A DNA stretch of 64,000 bases from Bdellovibrionales bacterium (lineage in GTDB: Bacteria > Bdellovibrionota > Bdellovibrionia > Bdellovibrionales > UBA1609): positions 1 through 64,000 of the forward strand of contig JAWLHR010000008.1 of the NCBI GenBank assembly GCA_041690295.1. Direction: 5' to 3'. The position numbers were made by a program. Positions 24,001-48,000 of the stretch are shown one piece after another (position 1 is the stretch's first letter; each line of letters opens with the position of its first letter).

Positions 24001-27000
24001 AAAACAAAAAGATCCGAAATTTCACCGTTGGCGTGCAGATGGGAGCTGTAGATTTTCGAGTCCTCATTGTCTTTGGCGCGGGTGACAAGAGCGGCTCCGG
24101 CGCCGTCACCGAAGAGAATGCAGGTCTCGCGATCCTTGTAATTGACGAAGTTATGGAGAATCTCGGCGCCCACGACCAAGATGTTTTTCATGGCGCCCGA
24201 ACGGATGAACTGATCCGCGATGGACAGCCCATAAACAAAACCCGAACAGGCCGCGGAGATGTCCAGCGCCCCGCAGTTTCCGGCGCCGAGTTTGGCCTGT
24301 AAAACACAAGCCGTGTTCGGCATCGGCTGATCCGGTGAGGCGGTGGCCACTAAAATGAAATCAAGTTCAGTCGGGGAAACGCCCGCTTCTTTGAGGGCGA
24401 TTTTCGAAGCTTCAAGGGCGAGATCACTGGTGTATACGCCCTCGTCGGCGATTCGGCGGCAGCTGATCCCGGTGCGTTCACGGATCCATTGGTCGTTGGT
24501 ATCGACCATTTTCTCCAAATCGTGATTGGTTAACCGGCGCTCAGGTAAGTAAGAGCCGGTGCCTGCGATGCGAGATCGATACTCAGCCACGGCTATGCTT
24601 GCGCGGTGACGACTTCGCGCCCTTTATAATATCCGCAGCTCAAACAAACATGATGGGGTTTGGAAAGCGCCCCGCAGTTCGGGCACGTTTGCACGCCCGG
24701 AGCGGTTAAAAAGTCATGCGCACGGCGCATATCACGGCGGGAACGCGAAGTTTTCTTTTTCGGTGTCGGCATACCTTATCCTATTGAAAACAGAAGAATT
24801 CTAACTTTTAAGCGGAACCGCCCCTGAGATCAACTCTTTAATTTAACTTTTTCCAGGACTTGGAAGGGATTATGGGCTTTAAAGGCGTCGTCAGTCCCAA
24901 TGGACAGCCAGGAGCGCTGTACACCTTCCGCTAAGTTTTCGCAGTTTTCGTCGCAATCCGGGCGGCCAAGGGGGCGAATGGGCTCGGCGAGTGCAATCAT
25001 TTCATGCACATAGTCCACCACGCTAAATTGATGGTTTTGCAAAACAATATAGTCGGGCCCTTCCGCTTCCCACTCATGGGCGTGGTTGGCCCGGGACTGT
25101 TGATCACCCTTTCCCATCGGTGGGGTCATTACAATCATCTCGTGAAGGTCGATTTGAATGGGATATTTGAAGTCTCCGGCGCACCGTGAACACTGCAGGT
25201 CCATCACCGTTTCCAGACGTCCGCGGAGATCATAGCTGTTGCCGGTGGGGGTGATACGAAACTCGATTTTGTAGGGGTTCGAGCCAATCAAATCCGCAAG
25301 ATAGGGGCTGAGCTCTCCGCTTTCGCGGCTGTAATTATAGTCCTGGCCCTCAGCGGATAACTCTTTGAGATTAATGGTCAGTGGATTCGTCCGGCGATTT
25401 GTCATGATTTGTGAAACATAAGGCTTATGGCGCGTTGCAGTCAATAAATTGTCCGCCCTTGGATTCTCCCTCTAGAATGATCACAAGTGACAAAACTGCT
25501 CTTGTTGATTTTCGCCCTGACGGGAGTGCCGGCCCAGGCCCAGTCCCAAGGGGTTAATACGATCCGTCTTGGCCGCTCATTAGTGGTTTATAAGCGGCCG
25601 GATTTCCGCTCAGGTGTGGCCTTTACCGTTCCTTCAGGCAGCGTGATCGCCGTGAGCCGCAGGGATTTTCGGGGCTTTAAAAAAATCAGGTTTCGCAGCG
25701 GTGGTAAGAACCGCTATGGGTATGTCCCCAGCTCGGATTTGACCCGGTCCGGTCCTTCCTCGCAGGTTGTACGAACCCACTATGGACCGCTCGCGAGTTA
25801 TTCGATTCTGCAGCAAAAAACCAAAACCTTCTCCACCAGTGATCAGGTGACTTACAAGACCGGAGATTACGAAAGCCGGAACTTCAATTACGGAATTCTG
25901 ATGCAAAGGGGAGCTCGTCATTTTTGGCGTCTCTATCTTGGGCATCGAACGATTGAGTACACCGGCAAGGCCACTTTGAATGTGAATGGGGCTCCGGCTC
26001 AGGATGTTTTTATCCGCTATAGCATGTTGAATTTCGGCGGGCAGATGGCTTGGTCGATTTATTCGGATTTCTGGTATGCGGGATTGGGTTTTGAAGTGAA
26101 TAAGGCCTTAAGCGGAAAAGCCCGATTGGGGGGACAGGATCTGACCGGGTACTCGGATCTACCGGATTATCTCGGTGGTCATGTGATGAGCGGAATTCAA
26201 TATTCGTTTTCACGACAAATCAAATCCATGGCGGAGTTCCGTTGGGGCCTGGTTCCTAACCAGGATCCCAGCGTCACTGTCATGGAATTGGTCTTTTCTT
26301 TGATGTATTCGCCGGGCGATTAAATCGGCGGTATCACTTAGATTCATGGAATCCGCCTGTTCAAAGTTTGGACAGCTGTGAACCGTAACAGGGCCTGTGA
26401 AAAAACTTTGGACAGGCTCAGCTCGTAATCTCCTGGATTCTGGATCGGTGGCGGTGGCACCGGCGTTGCAATCCTGAAGAGCAAAGGAGGGAGAACCATG
26501 AAACAATTAATTAAGCTTGGAATCATCACGCTCGTCATGATTTCCACCTCCGCTTACGCTGATCCCGCGGATGTGAATCTTTCGAAGGAAAGCTTACATG
26601 TTGATTTCAACAAAATGATCGATGAAGGACACCAAGCGAAAGCCAAAATTCAAAAGCACCTCGATCAAGCCATCACGGAAATCAGCGAAGAAGAAGATTT
26701 GGAGCGAAGCCGCGTGTTGGATTTTGTTGATGTGGAGATCGGTTGGGGCGACACCCCGAACACGATCGTCGATCGACGCTTCAACAGCGTGGAGCTCAGT
26801 TCGGAAACCCCGATTTACACCATCGATTTGGATAAATTGGTTCCGAACATACTTGATTTTAAAATTTAATTTCCATAGACCCCCATACCCCCTATGGATG
26901 ACCCCACTCGAGCCGGCTGGACCCCACCCGCCGGCTTTTTTTTGAGCCGCAGGGGCCGCCTTGTGGCCTACTTTTTAAGAAGGGATTCGCAGCGGCGCAA

Positions 27001-45000: not shown

Positions 45001-48000
45001 CGAATGGAAGAATCCTTTTTTCTCCAGTCCAACGCCGATAAAATTCCACTGATCAGTCCGAATTTCCAAGACAATCAGGCTTTATCCGAGAGGCTGGGGG
45101 TCGACCTTCGCCCGGGCGCGATTTATGACTTCATCTATGACGACGGGGGCAAAATCGTCGGCGTTCACCGTGACGAAAACGGCGAACCCAAATTTTTGGA
45201 AGTCTGGGATACGATCAGCGAAGATCCTTCGCGGCCGGGTCATAGGGGGAGCTTCGCCAAAGCCATCATCAATCGCAAACTTTATTACAGCAATATCGGC
45301 GGTCGGGTGGTCGATGACAAACGCCTGTTTCGGATCCTGACCAGTTACCTGCTTCCGCAACTTCCGGATATGGCCCGGCCCATCCGGGGCCTGGCCCAGG
45401 ATCAATTCGATCTTTTCTACGCCAACCCATCGAGCTTCGTGGTGAAAGAGCCTGGCAACTCCGGCGGAGTGGGAATTTACTTTCCCCGCGCGATGAGCGA
45501 GAGCGCGGTGGCCGAATTGGTCGAGCGCGTCCGCGCCCGGCCGACGGAATTTGAAATTCAATATCTGAGTGCCATCGCCACTTTGCCGGCGGTGAGCCAA
45601 TCGAAAAGCGGCCGGGAAGTCCATAGTGAGGTCCCCATTGATTTGCGAATTTTCGTGATGATGGATGCGGACGGAAATGTCGACGCCGGACCTAATTCAA
45701 TTCTCTTACGAACCGGCGCGCGGGGCGGGTTGTACACCAACACTTCCCGCGGCGGCGGTTACGGGATCGGCTTGATCCTTGAAGACCAGCCGGGGGTCCG
45801 TGAGACGAAGCCTTTTCAATGGGCGAAAATGCAAGTTGGTCAGTGGCCGAAAAGCCGCGAAACAGAGCTGGCCACCGTGCTCGAACAGGGCACCGCTTTG
45901 ATCAAATGTCTCTTTTCTTTGCGCTTCAATCAGGATGATAAAAAATGGAACGAGTGCCGAAGCCAGGCACTCGACCTTTCCTTCGCTTACCGGCAGGTCA
46001 TGGACTTGATCAGTCCTTGGCATTTGCAAGTGATCGCGACGTTAAGGAACTTCGCCCATGGGCGGGACCGCAACCTGGTTCAAAGCACCGAACTGGCCCG
46101 GCGAATGATTCAATCCTTCCGCCGCATGCGGCAGTCGGAGGGCGCGCTCGCGAACGTGGCCGCTCCCTTTTTCGCGAAGCACGCCCGCGAGTTGGGCCGC
46201 TTGGACCCCGTTGATCTTCAACATTTAAGGCTTCCCACCAAAGCCAAACTTCGCCGATTGGATCCGCCGGAGGTGAGCTATCGCTATGCGCCGGAAGGCA
46301 AGCTTCGCTCGCGGAAAATCGAGTTCGCCGAGTACATTTGGGTCGACAATCCCGAAGTGCAGGAAGTGATCGACGAGGTGAAGGCGTTCGGCGGCCAGGT
46401 GAGATTGCTCATTCGCGAAGTGGCGATCGAGAATCCGGAAGGCGTCGATAAGTGGTTCGGTCGCGAGTCCGCTTATTTCTGGGTGAATCTCAATCCCAAG
46501 TCCCCGTCCTATCTAATGCCCGTGATCGGCATTGATCTGGCCCGGGAGATGTCACTGGCGGCCCTTCATCATGAGCGGGAACATTTCCGGATGTTGCGCG
46601 AACTTTATGCCAATTACCGGCGGCGCGGCTTCGGTCATGAAAAAGCCATGCTCCGAGCCTATGCCGAAACCGAGACGGAAGAGAAAATCGTCGAAGCCGA
46701 ACGGCGTGCGGTGAAGGCTGAGATCAATGCCGAAGTCGAGTATGCCGACCATCCCTATAACCGGTTTTTCGGTAAATCCTGGGAAGCGAATCATTTTTAT
46801 GAAATCGGATTTGTGAACCGGATGACCTATCCGGAGTTTGAAGGCCTGCGCCGGCATTTGCGCCAGGTGAAGTGGGACCGGGTGCCGGTGAAAGAGGATT
46901 TCATCCGTAAAACCTTCTCCGCCGCGATTGATTTCGCGCTAAAGACCCGGGACCAGGCCTTTCTCCACTTTATGGAAAAAGATGATTTAGCCTCCATCCG
47001 GCTGTGGCGTGAATCCAATGTGTTCCTGATGCTCACCCAGCCCTATGGGCATGAGCGGCTGGAATTAGATGGCATTCGCGATGATTTTAAACTCTGGCTG
47101 TCCAAGGTCTGCGCCGAAATGGGCGTGAGTGCCGAAGATTGCGGAGTTCCGGTCCACTAAGTTCACAGAATCAATTTTCGCAGCTCTTCCTGGGTGTAGG
47201 CGTAATCCGCATAGACCATGGTGTTCGTGATGTTTCGATGACCAAGAGCCACTTGGACTAAACGAAGGTCCTTGGTCTTTTTGTAAAGCCTTATGGCGAA
47301 AGTGTGCCTTAGGGCGTGGAGTTTCTTATGGACGGGACGGTAAAGCTCCCAGACCTGGCGCAAACGATTGTACGAGATGGGAAAGAGTAACTGATTTTGA
47401 GCATTGGGGATTTCGCTGACCAACCGGCGGAACAGCCAGCTGGGGACGGGGAGCTCCCGATCGTTGCTGCCCTTAAGACCATGGATGAACACCGACTCAT
47501 CGAACGTATTTAGATCATCGATGCGAAGATTGAGGACCTCTTGGGCTCGGGCGCCGGTGTGCAAGAGCAGCCAAAGAAGGGTGCAGTTGCGTGGATCCTT
47601 GGCCTTGAATGAGTTGAGGATGTGAACCAGCCGATCGTATTCGGGATCCAAGAGGTACTTATTCTTGTTTAATGCGTATCGAACTTTAGTCCGAAACTGT
47701 GCCACATCGTTCCAATCTGGCGAGCGAAATTTTTATATATAAATTCAGTTTAGACGCGAAAAGTAAATTCGAATTCTGCTCACTCACCGTTGCTTATAGC
47801 TCAATTTTCGAGAGTGAAATCAGGTAATGTCAACAACTTAGTACTGTGACTTATAGTTATAATACGAAGTCGATTTTGAATTTGCGCATACCGCGTATAG
47901 GGTTTGGATTTGGGTTCATTGATACATAATTACCAAGCTACCAGCTGGACCCTCTAAAAATTTATTTTACATCGAGTAAGGATGTAAAACACAATTAAAT

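What a model noticed while it worked through the whole genome (the two positions that open the first line are those of the whole stretch)
26968..47160. A portable terminal C-E-x-x-L tag on ~40 unrelated Sec-exported enzymes, with a ten-gene tagged island
About 40 unrelated signal-peptide proteins of this genome carry C-E-x-x-L either just after the signal peptide (residues 17-45) or in the last 16 residues. All ten consecutive genes g01412-g01421 carry it. The cargo includes normally cytoplasmic enzyme types (ATP-grasp, GS-fold ligases, AAA+, dynamin-like GTPase, ATP-dependent ligase, trehalase) besides hydrolases and peptidases, so the tag is a candidate second-step sorting or attachment signal of Bdellovibrionales.
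Evidence so far: Unbiased test of all 8000 XY..Z motifs in signal-peptide proteins, ends against middle: CE..L ranks first, 37 seen against 2.3 expected, P about 1e-30; the next-ranked motifs are lipobox-like at 1e-8. 21 N-terminal and 16 C-terminal, none at both ends; proteins without a signal peptide show 3 and 4, near background; in 12 of 37 it is the only Cys. List of carriers in calls 101, 102. Kept in homologues: of 18 distinct outside homologues of hydrolase g00892 (32-59% identity) 15 end in C-x-x-x-L, 1 in C-x-x-x-F, 2 are truncated; all 6 outside CP-ATP-grasp homologues have C-x-x-x-L/F/Y after the signal peptide. It switches ends within a family: GS-fold homologues have it C-terminal in 5 of 7, N- [...]
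(Added by a program. Inside this text positions count along the whole contig: contig position 1 is position 1 of the stretch shown here. "Call 12" and the like, gene names such as g00115 and contig names such as C1 are that model's own, and its searches are not shown. The text may have been shortened before it was handed on; [...] marks where a part breaks off. The agent that wrote the report below was given it as the finding of a first reader that could run no searches.)

Follow-up and report, generated by a model that had tools for sequence, protein, structure and literature searches.

The report
Cysteine address tag on predator effectors
Predatory Bdellovibrio-type bacteria put a five-residue cysteine tag at either end of dozens of exported enzymes that can only work inside a cell's cytoplasm, and the tagged genes of the laboratory predator are switched on as it invades prey, so the tag probably marks proteins for delivery into the victim.

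Summary
Confirmed and wider than reported. All ten island genes carry C-E-x-x-L at one end; genome-wide it is the top end-motif of exported proteins (32 seen, 1.4 expected). The general form is C-x-x-x-[L/F/Y/I], with the last residues tuned per lineage: C...F is top in a 1.55-Mb relative (42 vs 2.7). It was seen in 7 families of the order and 4 outside it. Signal peptide and tag arrive together: 14 of 14 extra Leu/Phe-tRNA transferases have both, housekeeping copies do not. Carriers shed other cysteines fourfold. Cargo needs ATP, aminoacyl-tRNA, acyl-CoA or SAM. Six of six tagged Bdellovibrio bacteriovorus HD100 genes that I could map lie in the published 240-gene predatosome (of 3,587), including the Fic protein Bd2033, a reported transposon predation mutant; fold changes are modest. 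Best reading: an address label on Sec-exported effectors bound for prey cytoplasm, probably held by a disulfide to a predator carrier. It is not a lipobox, CaaX box or MYXO-CTERM; no Pfam or NCBIfam model and no paper in ten searches describes it. The scan noted this tag before on other genomes (three notes).

The parts
26968..28146 (-). Signal-peptide GS-fold (carboxylate-amine ligase-like) protein, 392 aa, C-terminal tag CESLL
   Evidence: 43-45% identical to the 42810-43931 paralogue, whose model matches GS/Dop/PafA/YbdK
26977..26991 (-). tag CESLL, 2 residues before the stop
28151..32008 (-). Signal-peptide ClpB-like AAA+ ATPase fused to an M41 (FtsH-type) protease domain, 1285 aa, C-terminal tag CEAAL
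   Evidence: Pfam AAA_2, ClpB_D2, Peptidase_M41; three Walker A motifs and HEMGH
28160..28174 (-). tag CEAAL
32175..33590 (-). GxDCS-family GNAT-like protein (start uncertain, frame open to 33674), C-terminal tag CEGRL
   Evidence: shares the RGxxGxDCS core
32184..32198 (-). tag CEGRL
33686..34807 (-). Signal-peptide M28 peptidase, 373 aa, N-terminal tag CEPVL, its only Cys
34730..34744 (-). tag CEPVL
34948..36612 (+). Signal-peptide M28 peptidase, 554 aa, N-terminal tag CEDQL, its only Cys
35014..35028 (+). tag CEDQL
36609..38798 (-). Signal-peptide GxDCS-family GNAT-like protein, 729 aa, C-terminal tag CESLL
   Evidence: P0302
36621..36635 (-). tag CESLL
38972..41389 (+). Signal-peptide GxDCS-family GNAT-like protein, 805 aa, C-terminal tag CENLL
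   Evidence: P0211
41363..41377 (+). tag CENLL
41386..42813 (+). Signal-peptide GxDCS-family protein, 475 aa, GNAT-like fold, C-terminal tag CENLL on a low-confidence terminal helix
   Evidence: model pLDDT 93, residues 466-475 under 50; best matches GNATs, Foldseek E 0.017, Z 8.3, rmsd 4.4, 157 aligned
42787..42801 (+). tag CENLL
42810..43931 (-). Signal-peptide GS-fold protein, 373 aa, C-terminal tag CEFAL, its only Cys
   Evidence: model pLDDT 94; Foldseek GS, Dop, PafA, YbdK at E 3e-4 to 9e-4; 116 of 120 homologues tagged
42819..42833 (-). tag CEFAL
44041..47160 (+). Signal-peptide circularly permuted ATP-grasp protein, 1039 aa, N-terminal tag CERNL
   Evidence: Pfam CP_ATPgrasp_2
44107..44121 (+). 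tag CERNL

Best explanation
The motif is an address label for predatory effectors. Step 1 (shown by sequence): the proteins have Sec-type signal peptides and so reach the predator's periplasm. Step 2 (shown): each carries one short Cys-x-x-hydrophobic-hydrophobic peptide on a free end, N or C, outside the enzyme core, while other cysteines are purged. Step 3 (inferred): a predator-encoded reader binds this peptide; because the last residues change in step across unrelated proteins of a genome, tag and reader co-evolve. Step 4 (inferred): at the prey contact site the cargo is passed into the prey cytoplasm, or a cytoplasm-continuous space, by an envelope machine not yet identified (Tad pilus, type II secretion and type IVa pilus are the candidates present); the reducing cytoplasm would cut the tether, as in AB toxins. 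Step 5 (inferred from enzyme families): there the cargo uses prey ATP, aminoacyl-tRNA, acyl-CoA and SAM to modify, mark and degrade prey proteins early in the attack. The island is such a kit: three ligase folds (ATP-grasp, GS, GNAT-like), two peptidases and an AAA+ protease. My odds: effectors acting on prey cytoplasmic contents about 0.8; tag as routing signal about 0.7; disulfide tether about 0.45.
For: Cargo: Leu/Phe-tRNA-protein transferase above the TIGR00667 cut-off beside a separate housekeeping copy, with core motifs intact; AAA+-M41, ATP-grasp, GS fold; in other genomes SF2 helicase, RNA polymerase alpha-CTD repeats, Fic, ABC1 kinase, methyltransferase. Coupling: 14 of 14 extra Aat copies have a leader with C-x3-[LFY/A], 1 of 31 housekeeping copies has such a motif in its first 60 residues; 0 of 4 short Fic proteins and 0 of 2 myxobacterial-type GS-fold homologues have signal or tag. 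Portability: linker 1-39 residues, 0-14 residues after the tag; in one hydrolase family of 80, 61 N-terminal, 2 C-terminal by pattern plus 2 by eye, none both. Cysteines other than the tag: 0.22 per 100 residues in 34 carriers against 0.82 in 523 other exported and 0.96 in 961 cytoplasmic proteins, without the even-number bias of disulfide-bonded proteins. HD100: 6 of 6 mapped tagged genes (Bd0957, Bd1038, Bd1788, Bd2033, Bd2345, Bd2839) are in the predatosome sheet of PMC2797640, 240 of 3,587 genes (hypergeometric 8e-8, or 2e-4 if all 240 came from 1,000 exported genes). Bd2033 is named there as a mini-Tn5 predation gene and in PMC3526173 as part of the predatory core; its protein rises 1.4-1.8 log2 at 15 min-2 h and then falls (PMC12546842). 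DsbA-like and VKOR-DsbA-like genes are kept in 5 of 5 genomes, down to 1.2 Mb.
Against: No reader, carrier or channel was identified: Tad minor pilins carry two cysteines each in 19 of 20 loci, 162 orthologue pairs between G000 and G034 gave no convincing free-cysteine partner (G034 read to about 75%), and Tad RcpC and GspK are both in 33 of 33 genomes, so they cannot be told apart. The predatosome fold changes are modest (1.16-1.89) and only 2 of 6 have t-test p under 0.05; four of six were not found in the proteome files searched. Four tagged HD100 proteins looked for were not found in the uninvaded-bdelloplast proteome at 300 min (PMC11003981; the authors say early DacB proteins were also missed). 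[quoted passage not shown] Some cargo (M28, M3, trehalase, PhoD, trypsin) could work outside a cytoplasm. Bd numbers were mapped by protein name and accession order, not by a direct cross-reference.
Confidence: 0.55

Rival explanations
1. The tag is a holding or safety signal: a periplasmic chaperone binds it and keeps the enzyme inactive or export-ready; release is by ordinary type II secretion or vesicles into the bdelloplast, where the enzymes use cofactors that leak once the prey inner membrane is breached.
For: Complete type II secretion locus, GspK in 33 of 33 genomes; untagged nucleases reach the bdelloplast (PMC7925074 passages); for epibiotic predators the prey inner membrane is described as disrupted (PMC12428579).
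Against: Reviews state that the prey cytoplasmic membrane stays intact in B. bacteriovorus bdelloplasts (PMC13689555); Aat needs charged tRNA; enzymes lacking their cofactors in the periplasm need little restraint; loss of structural disulfides fits unfolding or a reducing destination.
Confidence: 0.2
2. The cysteine is lipidated or otherwise modified by an unknown enzyme and anchors the cargo in the outer membrane or in vesicles that fuse with prey.
For: Invariant Cys followed by hydrophobic residues on a helix; G000 and G089 have a second Lgt copy.
Against: 0 of 21 N-terminal tags have a lipobox and 20 of 21 have charged residues before the Cys; tag-rich G034 has one Lgt, one Lnt and no Rce1/CPBP match; six Fic orthologues have a lipobox cysteine and a second tag-like cysteine, so the tag does not replace an anchor.
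Confidence: 0.12
3. Tags pair with each other by disulfide and lock co-encoded enzymes into an extracellular complex (reading of earlier scan notes e1-4294885 and e1-3313322).
For: One spare cysteine per protein (53 of 80); carriers cluster (18 of 45 adjacent to another).
Against: 27 of 45 carriers stand alone; one cysteine allows only pairs; the same tag sits on dozens of unrelated enzymes, which gives no pairing specificity; it does not explain cytoplasm-only cofactors.
Confidence: 0.08
4. Chance, gene-calling artefact or convergent helix capping.
For: Signal peptides were called by a heuristic; C-x3-[LFIYMW] occurs in the last 25 residues of 58 of 1,199 other proteins.
Against: log10 P -31 and -34 in two genomes of different G+C; 116 of 120 and 90 of 150 homologues; end switching; lineage tuning.
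Confidence: 0.01

Closest known systems
Type IX secretion CTD and type II secretion (Sec first, second step across the outer membrane) (recalled)
   Same: Sec signal peptide plus a second signal shared by unrelated cargo; a type II system is present in the genome.
   Different: T9SS CTD is a folded domain of about 70 residues at the C-terminus only; T2SS signals are conformational; both deliver outside the cell. This tag is five residues, built on a cysteine, works at either end, and marks enzymes that need cytoplasmic cofactors.
Lipoprotein lipobox (Lgt/LspA/Lnt)
   Same: An invariant cysteine near the start of an exported protein.
   Different: 0 of 21 N-terminal tags have a lipobox; 17 of 38 tags are C-terminal; some proteins have both a lipobox and the tag.
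MYXO-CTERM / myxosortase and related Cys-bearing C-terminal sorting signals (NCBIfam TIGR03901; recalled, and named in scan notes)
   Same: Cys-containing terminal motif on many unrelated exported proteins in a related predatory phylum.
   Different: No transmembrane helix or basic tail, N-terminal use, no NCBIfam match, no Rce1/CPBP match in 4 of 5 genomes tested.
Disulfide tethers of AB toxins such as typhoid toxin PltA-CdtB and cholera A1-A2 (recalled)
   Same: A single terminal cysteine could link an enzyme to a carrier in the periplasm and release it in a reducing cytoplasm.
   Different: There the link joins one fixed pair; here one tag serves dozens of cargoes and no B subunit was found. 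Works-like claim only.
Xanthomonas/Lysobacter T4SS effectors with XVIPCD, and Myxococcus Kil (Tad) plus needle-less T3SS (PMC12428579 passages; XVIPCD recalled)
   Same: Contact-dependent delivery of antibacterial effectors by predators; Tad pili are essential for Bdellovibrio predation.
   Different: XVIPCD effectors have no Sec peptide and are recruited from the cytoplasm; no effector signal is described for Tad systems.

Membership tests
Lipobox lipoprotein | [LVI][ASTVI][GAS]C directly ending the hydrophobic region | tested here: not met
   0 of 21 N-terminal tags; 20 of 21 have a charged residue in positions -6 to -1
Lipobox lipoprotein | Cysteine is N-terminal only | tested here: not met
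   17 of 38 are C-terminal
MYXO-CTERM-type sorting signal | C-terminal transmembrane helix and basic tail after the Cys motif | tested here: not met
   highest 17-residue hydropathy in the last 40 residues is 0.96 in 17 C-tagged proteins
MYXO-CTERM-type sorting signal | CPBP/Rce1 sortase in the genome | tested here: not met
   PF02517 matched in G000 only, 1 of 5 genomes; none in tag-bearing G034 (95% complete), G023, G089
CaaX prenylation box | Cys fourth from the C-terminus | tested here: not met
   0 of 17 C-tagged proteins; 0-14 residues follow the five-residue tag
Type IX secretion substrate | C-terminal CTD domain | tested here: not met
   no CTD model among Pfam or NCBIfam hits of the 10 island proteins and 20 or more other carriers
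Type II secretion substrate | Sec export and a T2SS in the genome | tested here: met
   gsp-type locus at G000:C7; GspK in 33 of 33 genomes
Type II secretion substrate | Export depends on the T2SS | not testable with these tools
   needs knock-down experiments
Tad/Kil-delivered effector | Tad machinery present | tested here: met
   RcpC in 33 of 33 genomes; conserved locus in 20 of 20
Tad/Kil-delivered effector | A pilus part with a free cysteine or tag-binding site | tested here: inconclusive
   two minor pilins have paired cysteines, secretin and RcpC mostly none; non-covalent binding not tested
B. bacteriovorus predatosome gene | Up on prey entry at 30 min, not in host-independent growth | tested here: met
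   6 of 6 mapped HD100 genes in the sheet of PMC2797640; window genes themselves have no expression data
Leu/Phe-tRNA-protein transferase (cargo) | TIGR00667 cut-off and core motifs | tested here: met
   146.6 bits over 143.55; FPW, HSVEVW, GESMF and DTQ kept

The most novel reading that the evidence does not exclude
Bdellovibrionota have an undescribed, phylum-wide effector pathway: Sec export, then covalent loading through a five-residue cysteine tag at either end onto a carrier that crosses the prey envelope and drops enzymes of 100-1,500 residues into prey cytoplasm. The tag would list the effector set of any such genome from sequence alone and could be grafted onto reporters.
Probability: 0.4. 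Interest if true: 0.95.

Novelty: categorically new. Interest (0 to 1): 0.87.

Why it matters
How B. bacteriovorus gains access to prey cytoplasm is listed as an open question (PMC10225642), its secretion is called largely unexplored (PMC12622784), and secreted agents are now thought to do the killing (PMC11003981). A short tag that picks out cytoplasm-acting enzymes, is present in the genetically tractable strain HD100 and sits on a reported predation gene makes the question testable with one point mutation and one reporter fusion. It also names a large class of uncharacterised effectors (exported Aat, Fic, kinase, AAA+ protease, peptide ligases, a GNAT-like family of 288 clusters). The novelty rating is for the signal; the channel may prove to be a known machine such as Tad or type II secretion.

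Tried and rejected
Ten literature searches found no description of the motif; the library lacks most subscription journals, and Tudor et al.'s transposon paper was not read (known only through PMC2797640). Pfam and NCBIfam gave no model for the tag. The PDB sequence search with the GS-fold alignment gave nothing. A DNA-pattern count across genomes is too noisy: CE.[VIM]F gave 45 against 24 control hits, of which 5 were real end tags; the stop-anchored pattern gave 109 against 119. No shared upstream DNA motif in 45 carriers (best log10 P -4.7 among 57,673 patterns). Presence of Tad and type II genes does not separate genomes. Searches for a free-cysteine partner in 20 Tad loci and 162 orthologue pairs were inconclusive; about a quarter of G034 was not read. 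A DsbA-like gene lies right after two carriers at G000:C8:108539 but this neighbourhood was not seen elsewhere. The Atlas gave only sub-0.9 leads and no usable hit for the 1,380-aa carrier. No RNA holder was listed for the island. No complex prediction was run, as there was no specific partner to test. The HD100 orthologue of hydrolase P0121 was not found. Further candidate tags listed could not be read, so the HD100 test rests on six genes. The largest source-data file of PMC11003981 and the tail of file 5 of PMC12546842 could not be seen.

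
Full report
Observation. The ten ORFs from 26968 to 47160 each carry C-E-x-x-L once at an end: seven within the last eight residues and three at residues 21-23, just behind a signal peptide. 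A gene caller of my own gave 2,565 genes, 917 with a heuristic signal peptide. Among all XY..Z motifs, CE..L was the most enriched at ends against middles: 32 seen, 1.4 expected, log10 P -31; the runner-up had -5.4, and the 1,648 other proteins showed 9 against 6.5. Of 45 proteins listed with the motif at an end I kept 38 (21 N, 17 C, none both) and dropped 7 by eye. G+C is flat over the island.

What the island encodes. Two GS-fold proteins (model pLDDT 94; Foldseek matches to glutamine synthetase, Dop, PafA and YbdK at E 3e-4 to 9e-4), one circularly permuted ATP-grasp protein, a ClpB-like AAA+ ATPase fused to an M41 protease, two M28 peptidases, and four members of an unnamed family with an invariant RGxxGxDCS core (288 clusters at 50% identity) whose model is GNAT-like (Foldseek E 0.017 at best; Z 8.3, rmsd 4.4 over 157 residues; nearly all top rows GNATs; middling scores, so a lead). 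Similar clusters with tags occur in titled Bdellovibrionales/Bdellovibrionaceae records (L009-L013). Carriers elsewhere in the genome include a Leu/Phe-tRNA-protein transferase, an ATP-dependent ligase domain, alpha/beta hydrolases, PhoD, M3 peptidase and trehalase; 22 of 30 tested had no Pfam match at E 0.01.

The tag is an appendage. In the GS-fold family 116 of 120 homologues end in C-x3-[LIMF], 112 with L; the four misses are two truncations, one Cys-to-Ser and one other +4 residue. The distance from the last core motif to the cysteine runs from 1 to 39 residues and 0-14 residues follow. In the GNAT-like family 90 of the 150 best representatives have the motif in the last 25 residues against 58 of 1,199 background proteins; in the model it is a separate helix with pLDDT under 50. 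In a hydrolase family of 80, 61 have it at the N-terminus, 2 at the C-terminus by pattern and 2 more by eye, none at both ends, and 53 have a single cysteine after the signal peptide.

It is gained with the signal peptide. The tRNA transferase is the cleanest case: 110 of 121 genomes of the order have the family; 31 housekeeping copies show the motif in the first 60 residues once, whereas 14 of 14 extra copies in families f1, f3 and f12 carry a leader with C-x3-[LFY] (one with A), and keep the catalytic core. Short Fic proteins (0 of 4) and two myxobacterial-type GS-fold homologues have neither signal nor tag. Endonuclease I proteins, exported but disulfide-bonded, lack it (0 of 11).

Range and tuning. 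In G034, a 1.55-Mb, 36% G+C member of the same family read to about 75%, the unbiased test gave C...F first: 42 seen, 2.7 expected, log10 P -34 among 334 signal-peptide proteins, absent from the top of the other 546. Its cargo includes an SF2 helicase (no signal peptide called), RNA polymerase alpha-CTD repeats, ankyrin, Sel1 and trypsin proteins. Tags were seen in families f1, f3, f5, f8, f10, f12 and f13 of the order and f15, f17, f21 and f22 outside it (12 of 15 hydrolase loci canonical; 8 of 20 long Fic loci canonical and 7 more with a cysteine in place); other families were not examined. The +4 residue is L in the window's genus and F in G034, f10 and f12. Such concerted change across unrelated proteins points to one reader per genome (inference).

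Cysteine economy. Apart from the tag, 34 carriers have 0.22 cysteines per 100 residues, against 0.82 in 523 other exported proteins and 0.96 in 961 cytoplasmic ones. Other exported proteins favour even counts (93 with two, 41 with one); carriers and the GS-fold family do not (55, 29, 21, 3, 1 for zero to four). Exported transferases have 0.19 against 1.58 in housekeeping copies. This fits proteins that pass an oxidising compartment with one reactive thiol and do not rely on structural disulfides (inference).

Link to experiments. Cluster look-ups gave six tagged HD100 proteins, with the tag as the only mature cysteine in five: Fic protein CAE79880, ABC1 kinase CAE80164, CAE80621, CAE78969, CAE79649 and methyltransferase CAE78896. 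By name and accession order they are Bd2033, Bd2345, Bd2839, Bd1038, Bd1788 and Bd0957 (inferred; row offsets predicted the last two exactly). All six are in the sheet 'Predatosome-up in Bd, not in HI' of PMC2797640, 240 of 3,587 genes; the last two were looked up after the pattern was seen. Chance is 8e-8, or 2e-4 if all 240 were drawn from 1,000 exported genes. Fold changes are only 1.16-1.89 and two of six have p under 0.05. The untagged nucleases Bd0934 and Bd3507 fall in the host-independent sheet. Bd2033 is named as a mini-Tn5 predation gene and as shared predatory core with Bacteriovorax (PMC3526173). In PMC12546842 its protein rises 1.4-1.8 log2 from 15 min to 2 h and drops by 4 h; Bd2345 rises 0.8-0.9 while housekeeping UbiB Bd0422 stays flat; the other four were not found. 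Against: four tagged proteins searched were not in the 300-min uninvaded-bdelloplast proteome of PMC11003981, which also missed early DacB enzymes.

Mechanism. Shown: Sec-type leader, one terminal Cys-x-x-hydrophobic-hydrophobic tag, cofactor-dependent cargo, timing at prey entry in HD100. Inferred: a predator reader binds the tag, probably through a mixed disulfide since side-chain chemistry suits either end, and an envelope machine delivers the cargo to prey cytoplasm, where reduction frees it. Tad and type II systems are both in 33 of 33 genomes, Tad minor pilins have paired cysteines, and no free-cysteine partner stood out in 162 orthologue pairs. Lipidation is disfavoured: no lipobox in 21 of 21, no membrane helix in 17 of 17, no CaaX spacing, no Rce1/CPBP match in 4 of 5 genomes, and six Fic orthologues carry a lipobox and a second tag-like cysteine.

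Known art. No Pfam or NCBIfam model covers the tag. Ten searches found no description. What I saw of papers: passages of PMC10225642, PMC13689555, PMC12622784, PMC12428579, PMC7925074, PMC2797640, PMC3526173 and PMC11003981 (plus its section 9); supplement rows of PMC2797640, PMC12546842 and PMC11003981; Tudor et al. not seen. T9SS CTD, XVIPCD, MYXO-CTERM features, AB-toxin tethers, TreA and LigE are recalled. Earlier scan notes e1-3313322, e1-2984804 and e1-4294885 report the same kind of tag on other genomes; they are unchecked notes and not counted as support.

Verdict. A real, phylum-wide, apparently undescribed terminal signal on predatory effectors, tied to prey entry in the model predator, with the machinery still open. 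Interest 0.87.

Noticed in passing
window 47163-47705 (-): Small tyrosine-recombinase-like gene (R...H-x-L-R-H...H...Y pattern, recalled) directly after the island; a homologue also lies near a tagged GS-fold cluster in L019:2742-3071.
   Followed up: no
window 32175-33590, 36609-38798, 38972-41389, 41386-42813: Unnamed family with invariant RGxxGxDCS and a GNAT-like fold, 288 clusters at 50% identity, no Pfam or NCBIfam model; possible Cys-dependent transferase or ligase.
   Followed up: partly
G000:C20:19318-20130 (L045): Exported Leu/Phe-tRNA-protein transferase beside a normal cytoplasmic copy; up to three extra exported copies per genome in families f1, f3, f12.
   Followed up: yes
G034 loci L135:4726-5946, L199:14671-16056, L208; G000:C2:23341-25038: Exported proteins made of repeated RNA polymerase alpha-CTD-like domains, possible decoys for prey transcription.
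   Followed up: partly
G019, G023, G034, G035 (family f1): Genomes of 1.2-1.6 Mb that keep Tad, type II secretion and Dsb genes; G034 has dozens of tagged ankyrin, Sel1 and repeat proteins, hinting at a host-dependent life.
   Followed up: partly
L273-L279 (families f21, f15): Fic orthologues of Bd2033 are lipoproteins with a second tag-like cysteine 15-30 residues later.
   Followed up: partly
L138:11228-12281 and 19 other Tad loci: Two Tad minor pilins end in conserved CxxxxC and D[ND]GC motifs in 19 of 20 loci; a second Tad-like locus lies at G000:C1:4432-13927.
   Followed up: partly
L168:826-2019, L164, L165, L167, L169: VKOR-like plus DsbA-like fusion of about 397 aa kept in 5 of 5 genomes; a DsbA lipoprotein sits divergent from a conserved cysteine-poor exported protein of unknown function (L159:2346-2957) in 4 of 5.
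   Followed up: no
L014:8701-10178, L015:4726-6656: Untagged, signal-less GS-fold homologues sit next to a glutathione-synthase-like gene in myxobacterial-type contigs, a possible cytoplasmic origin of the exported family.
   Followed up: partly
window 48036-50746: Helix-turn-helix membrane protein, two hypothetical proteins and a TenA/PqqC-like haem-oxygenase-fold gene (recalled pattern) after the recombinase.
   Followed up: no
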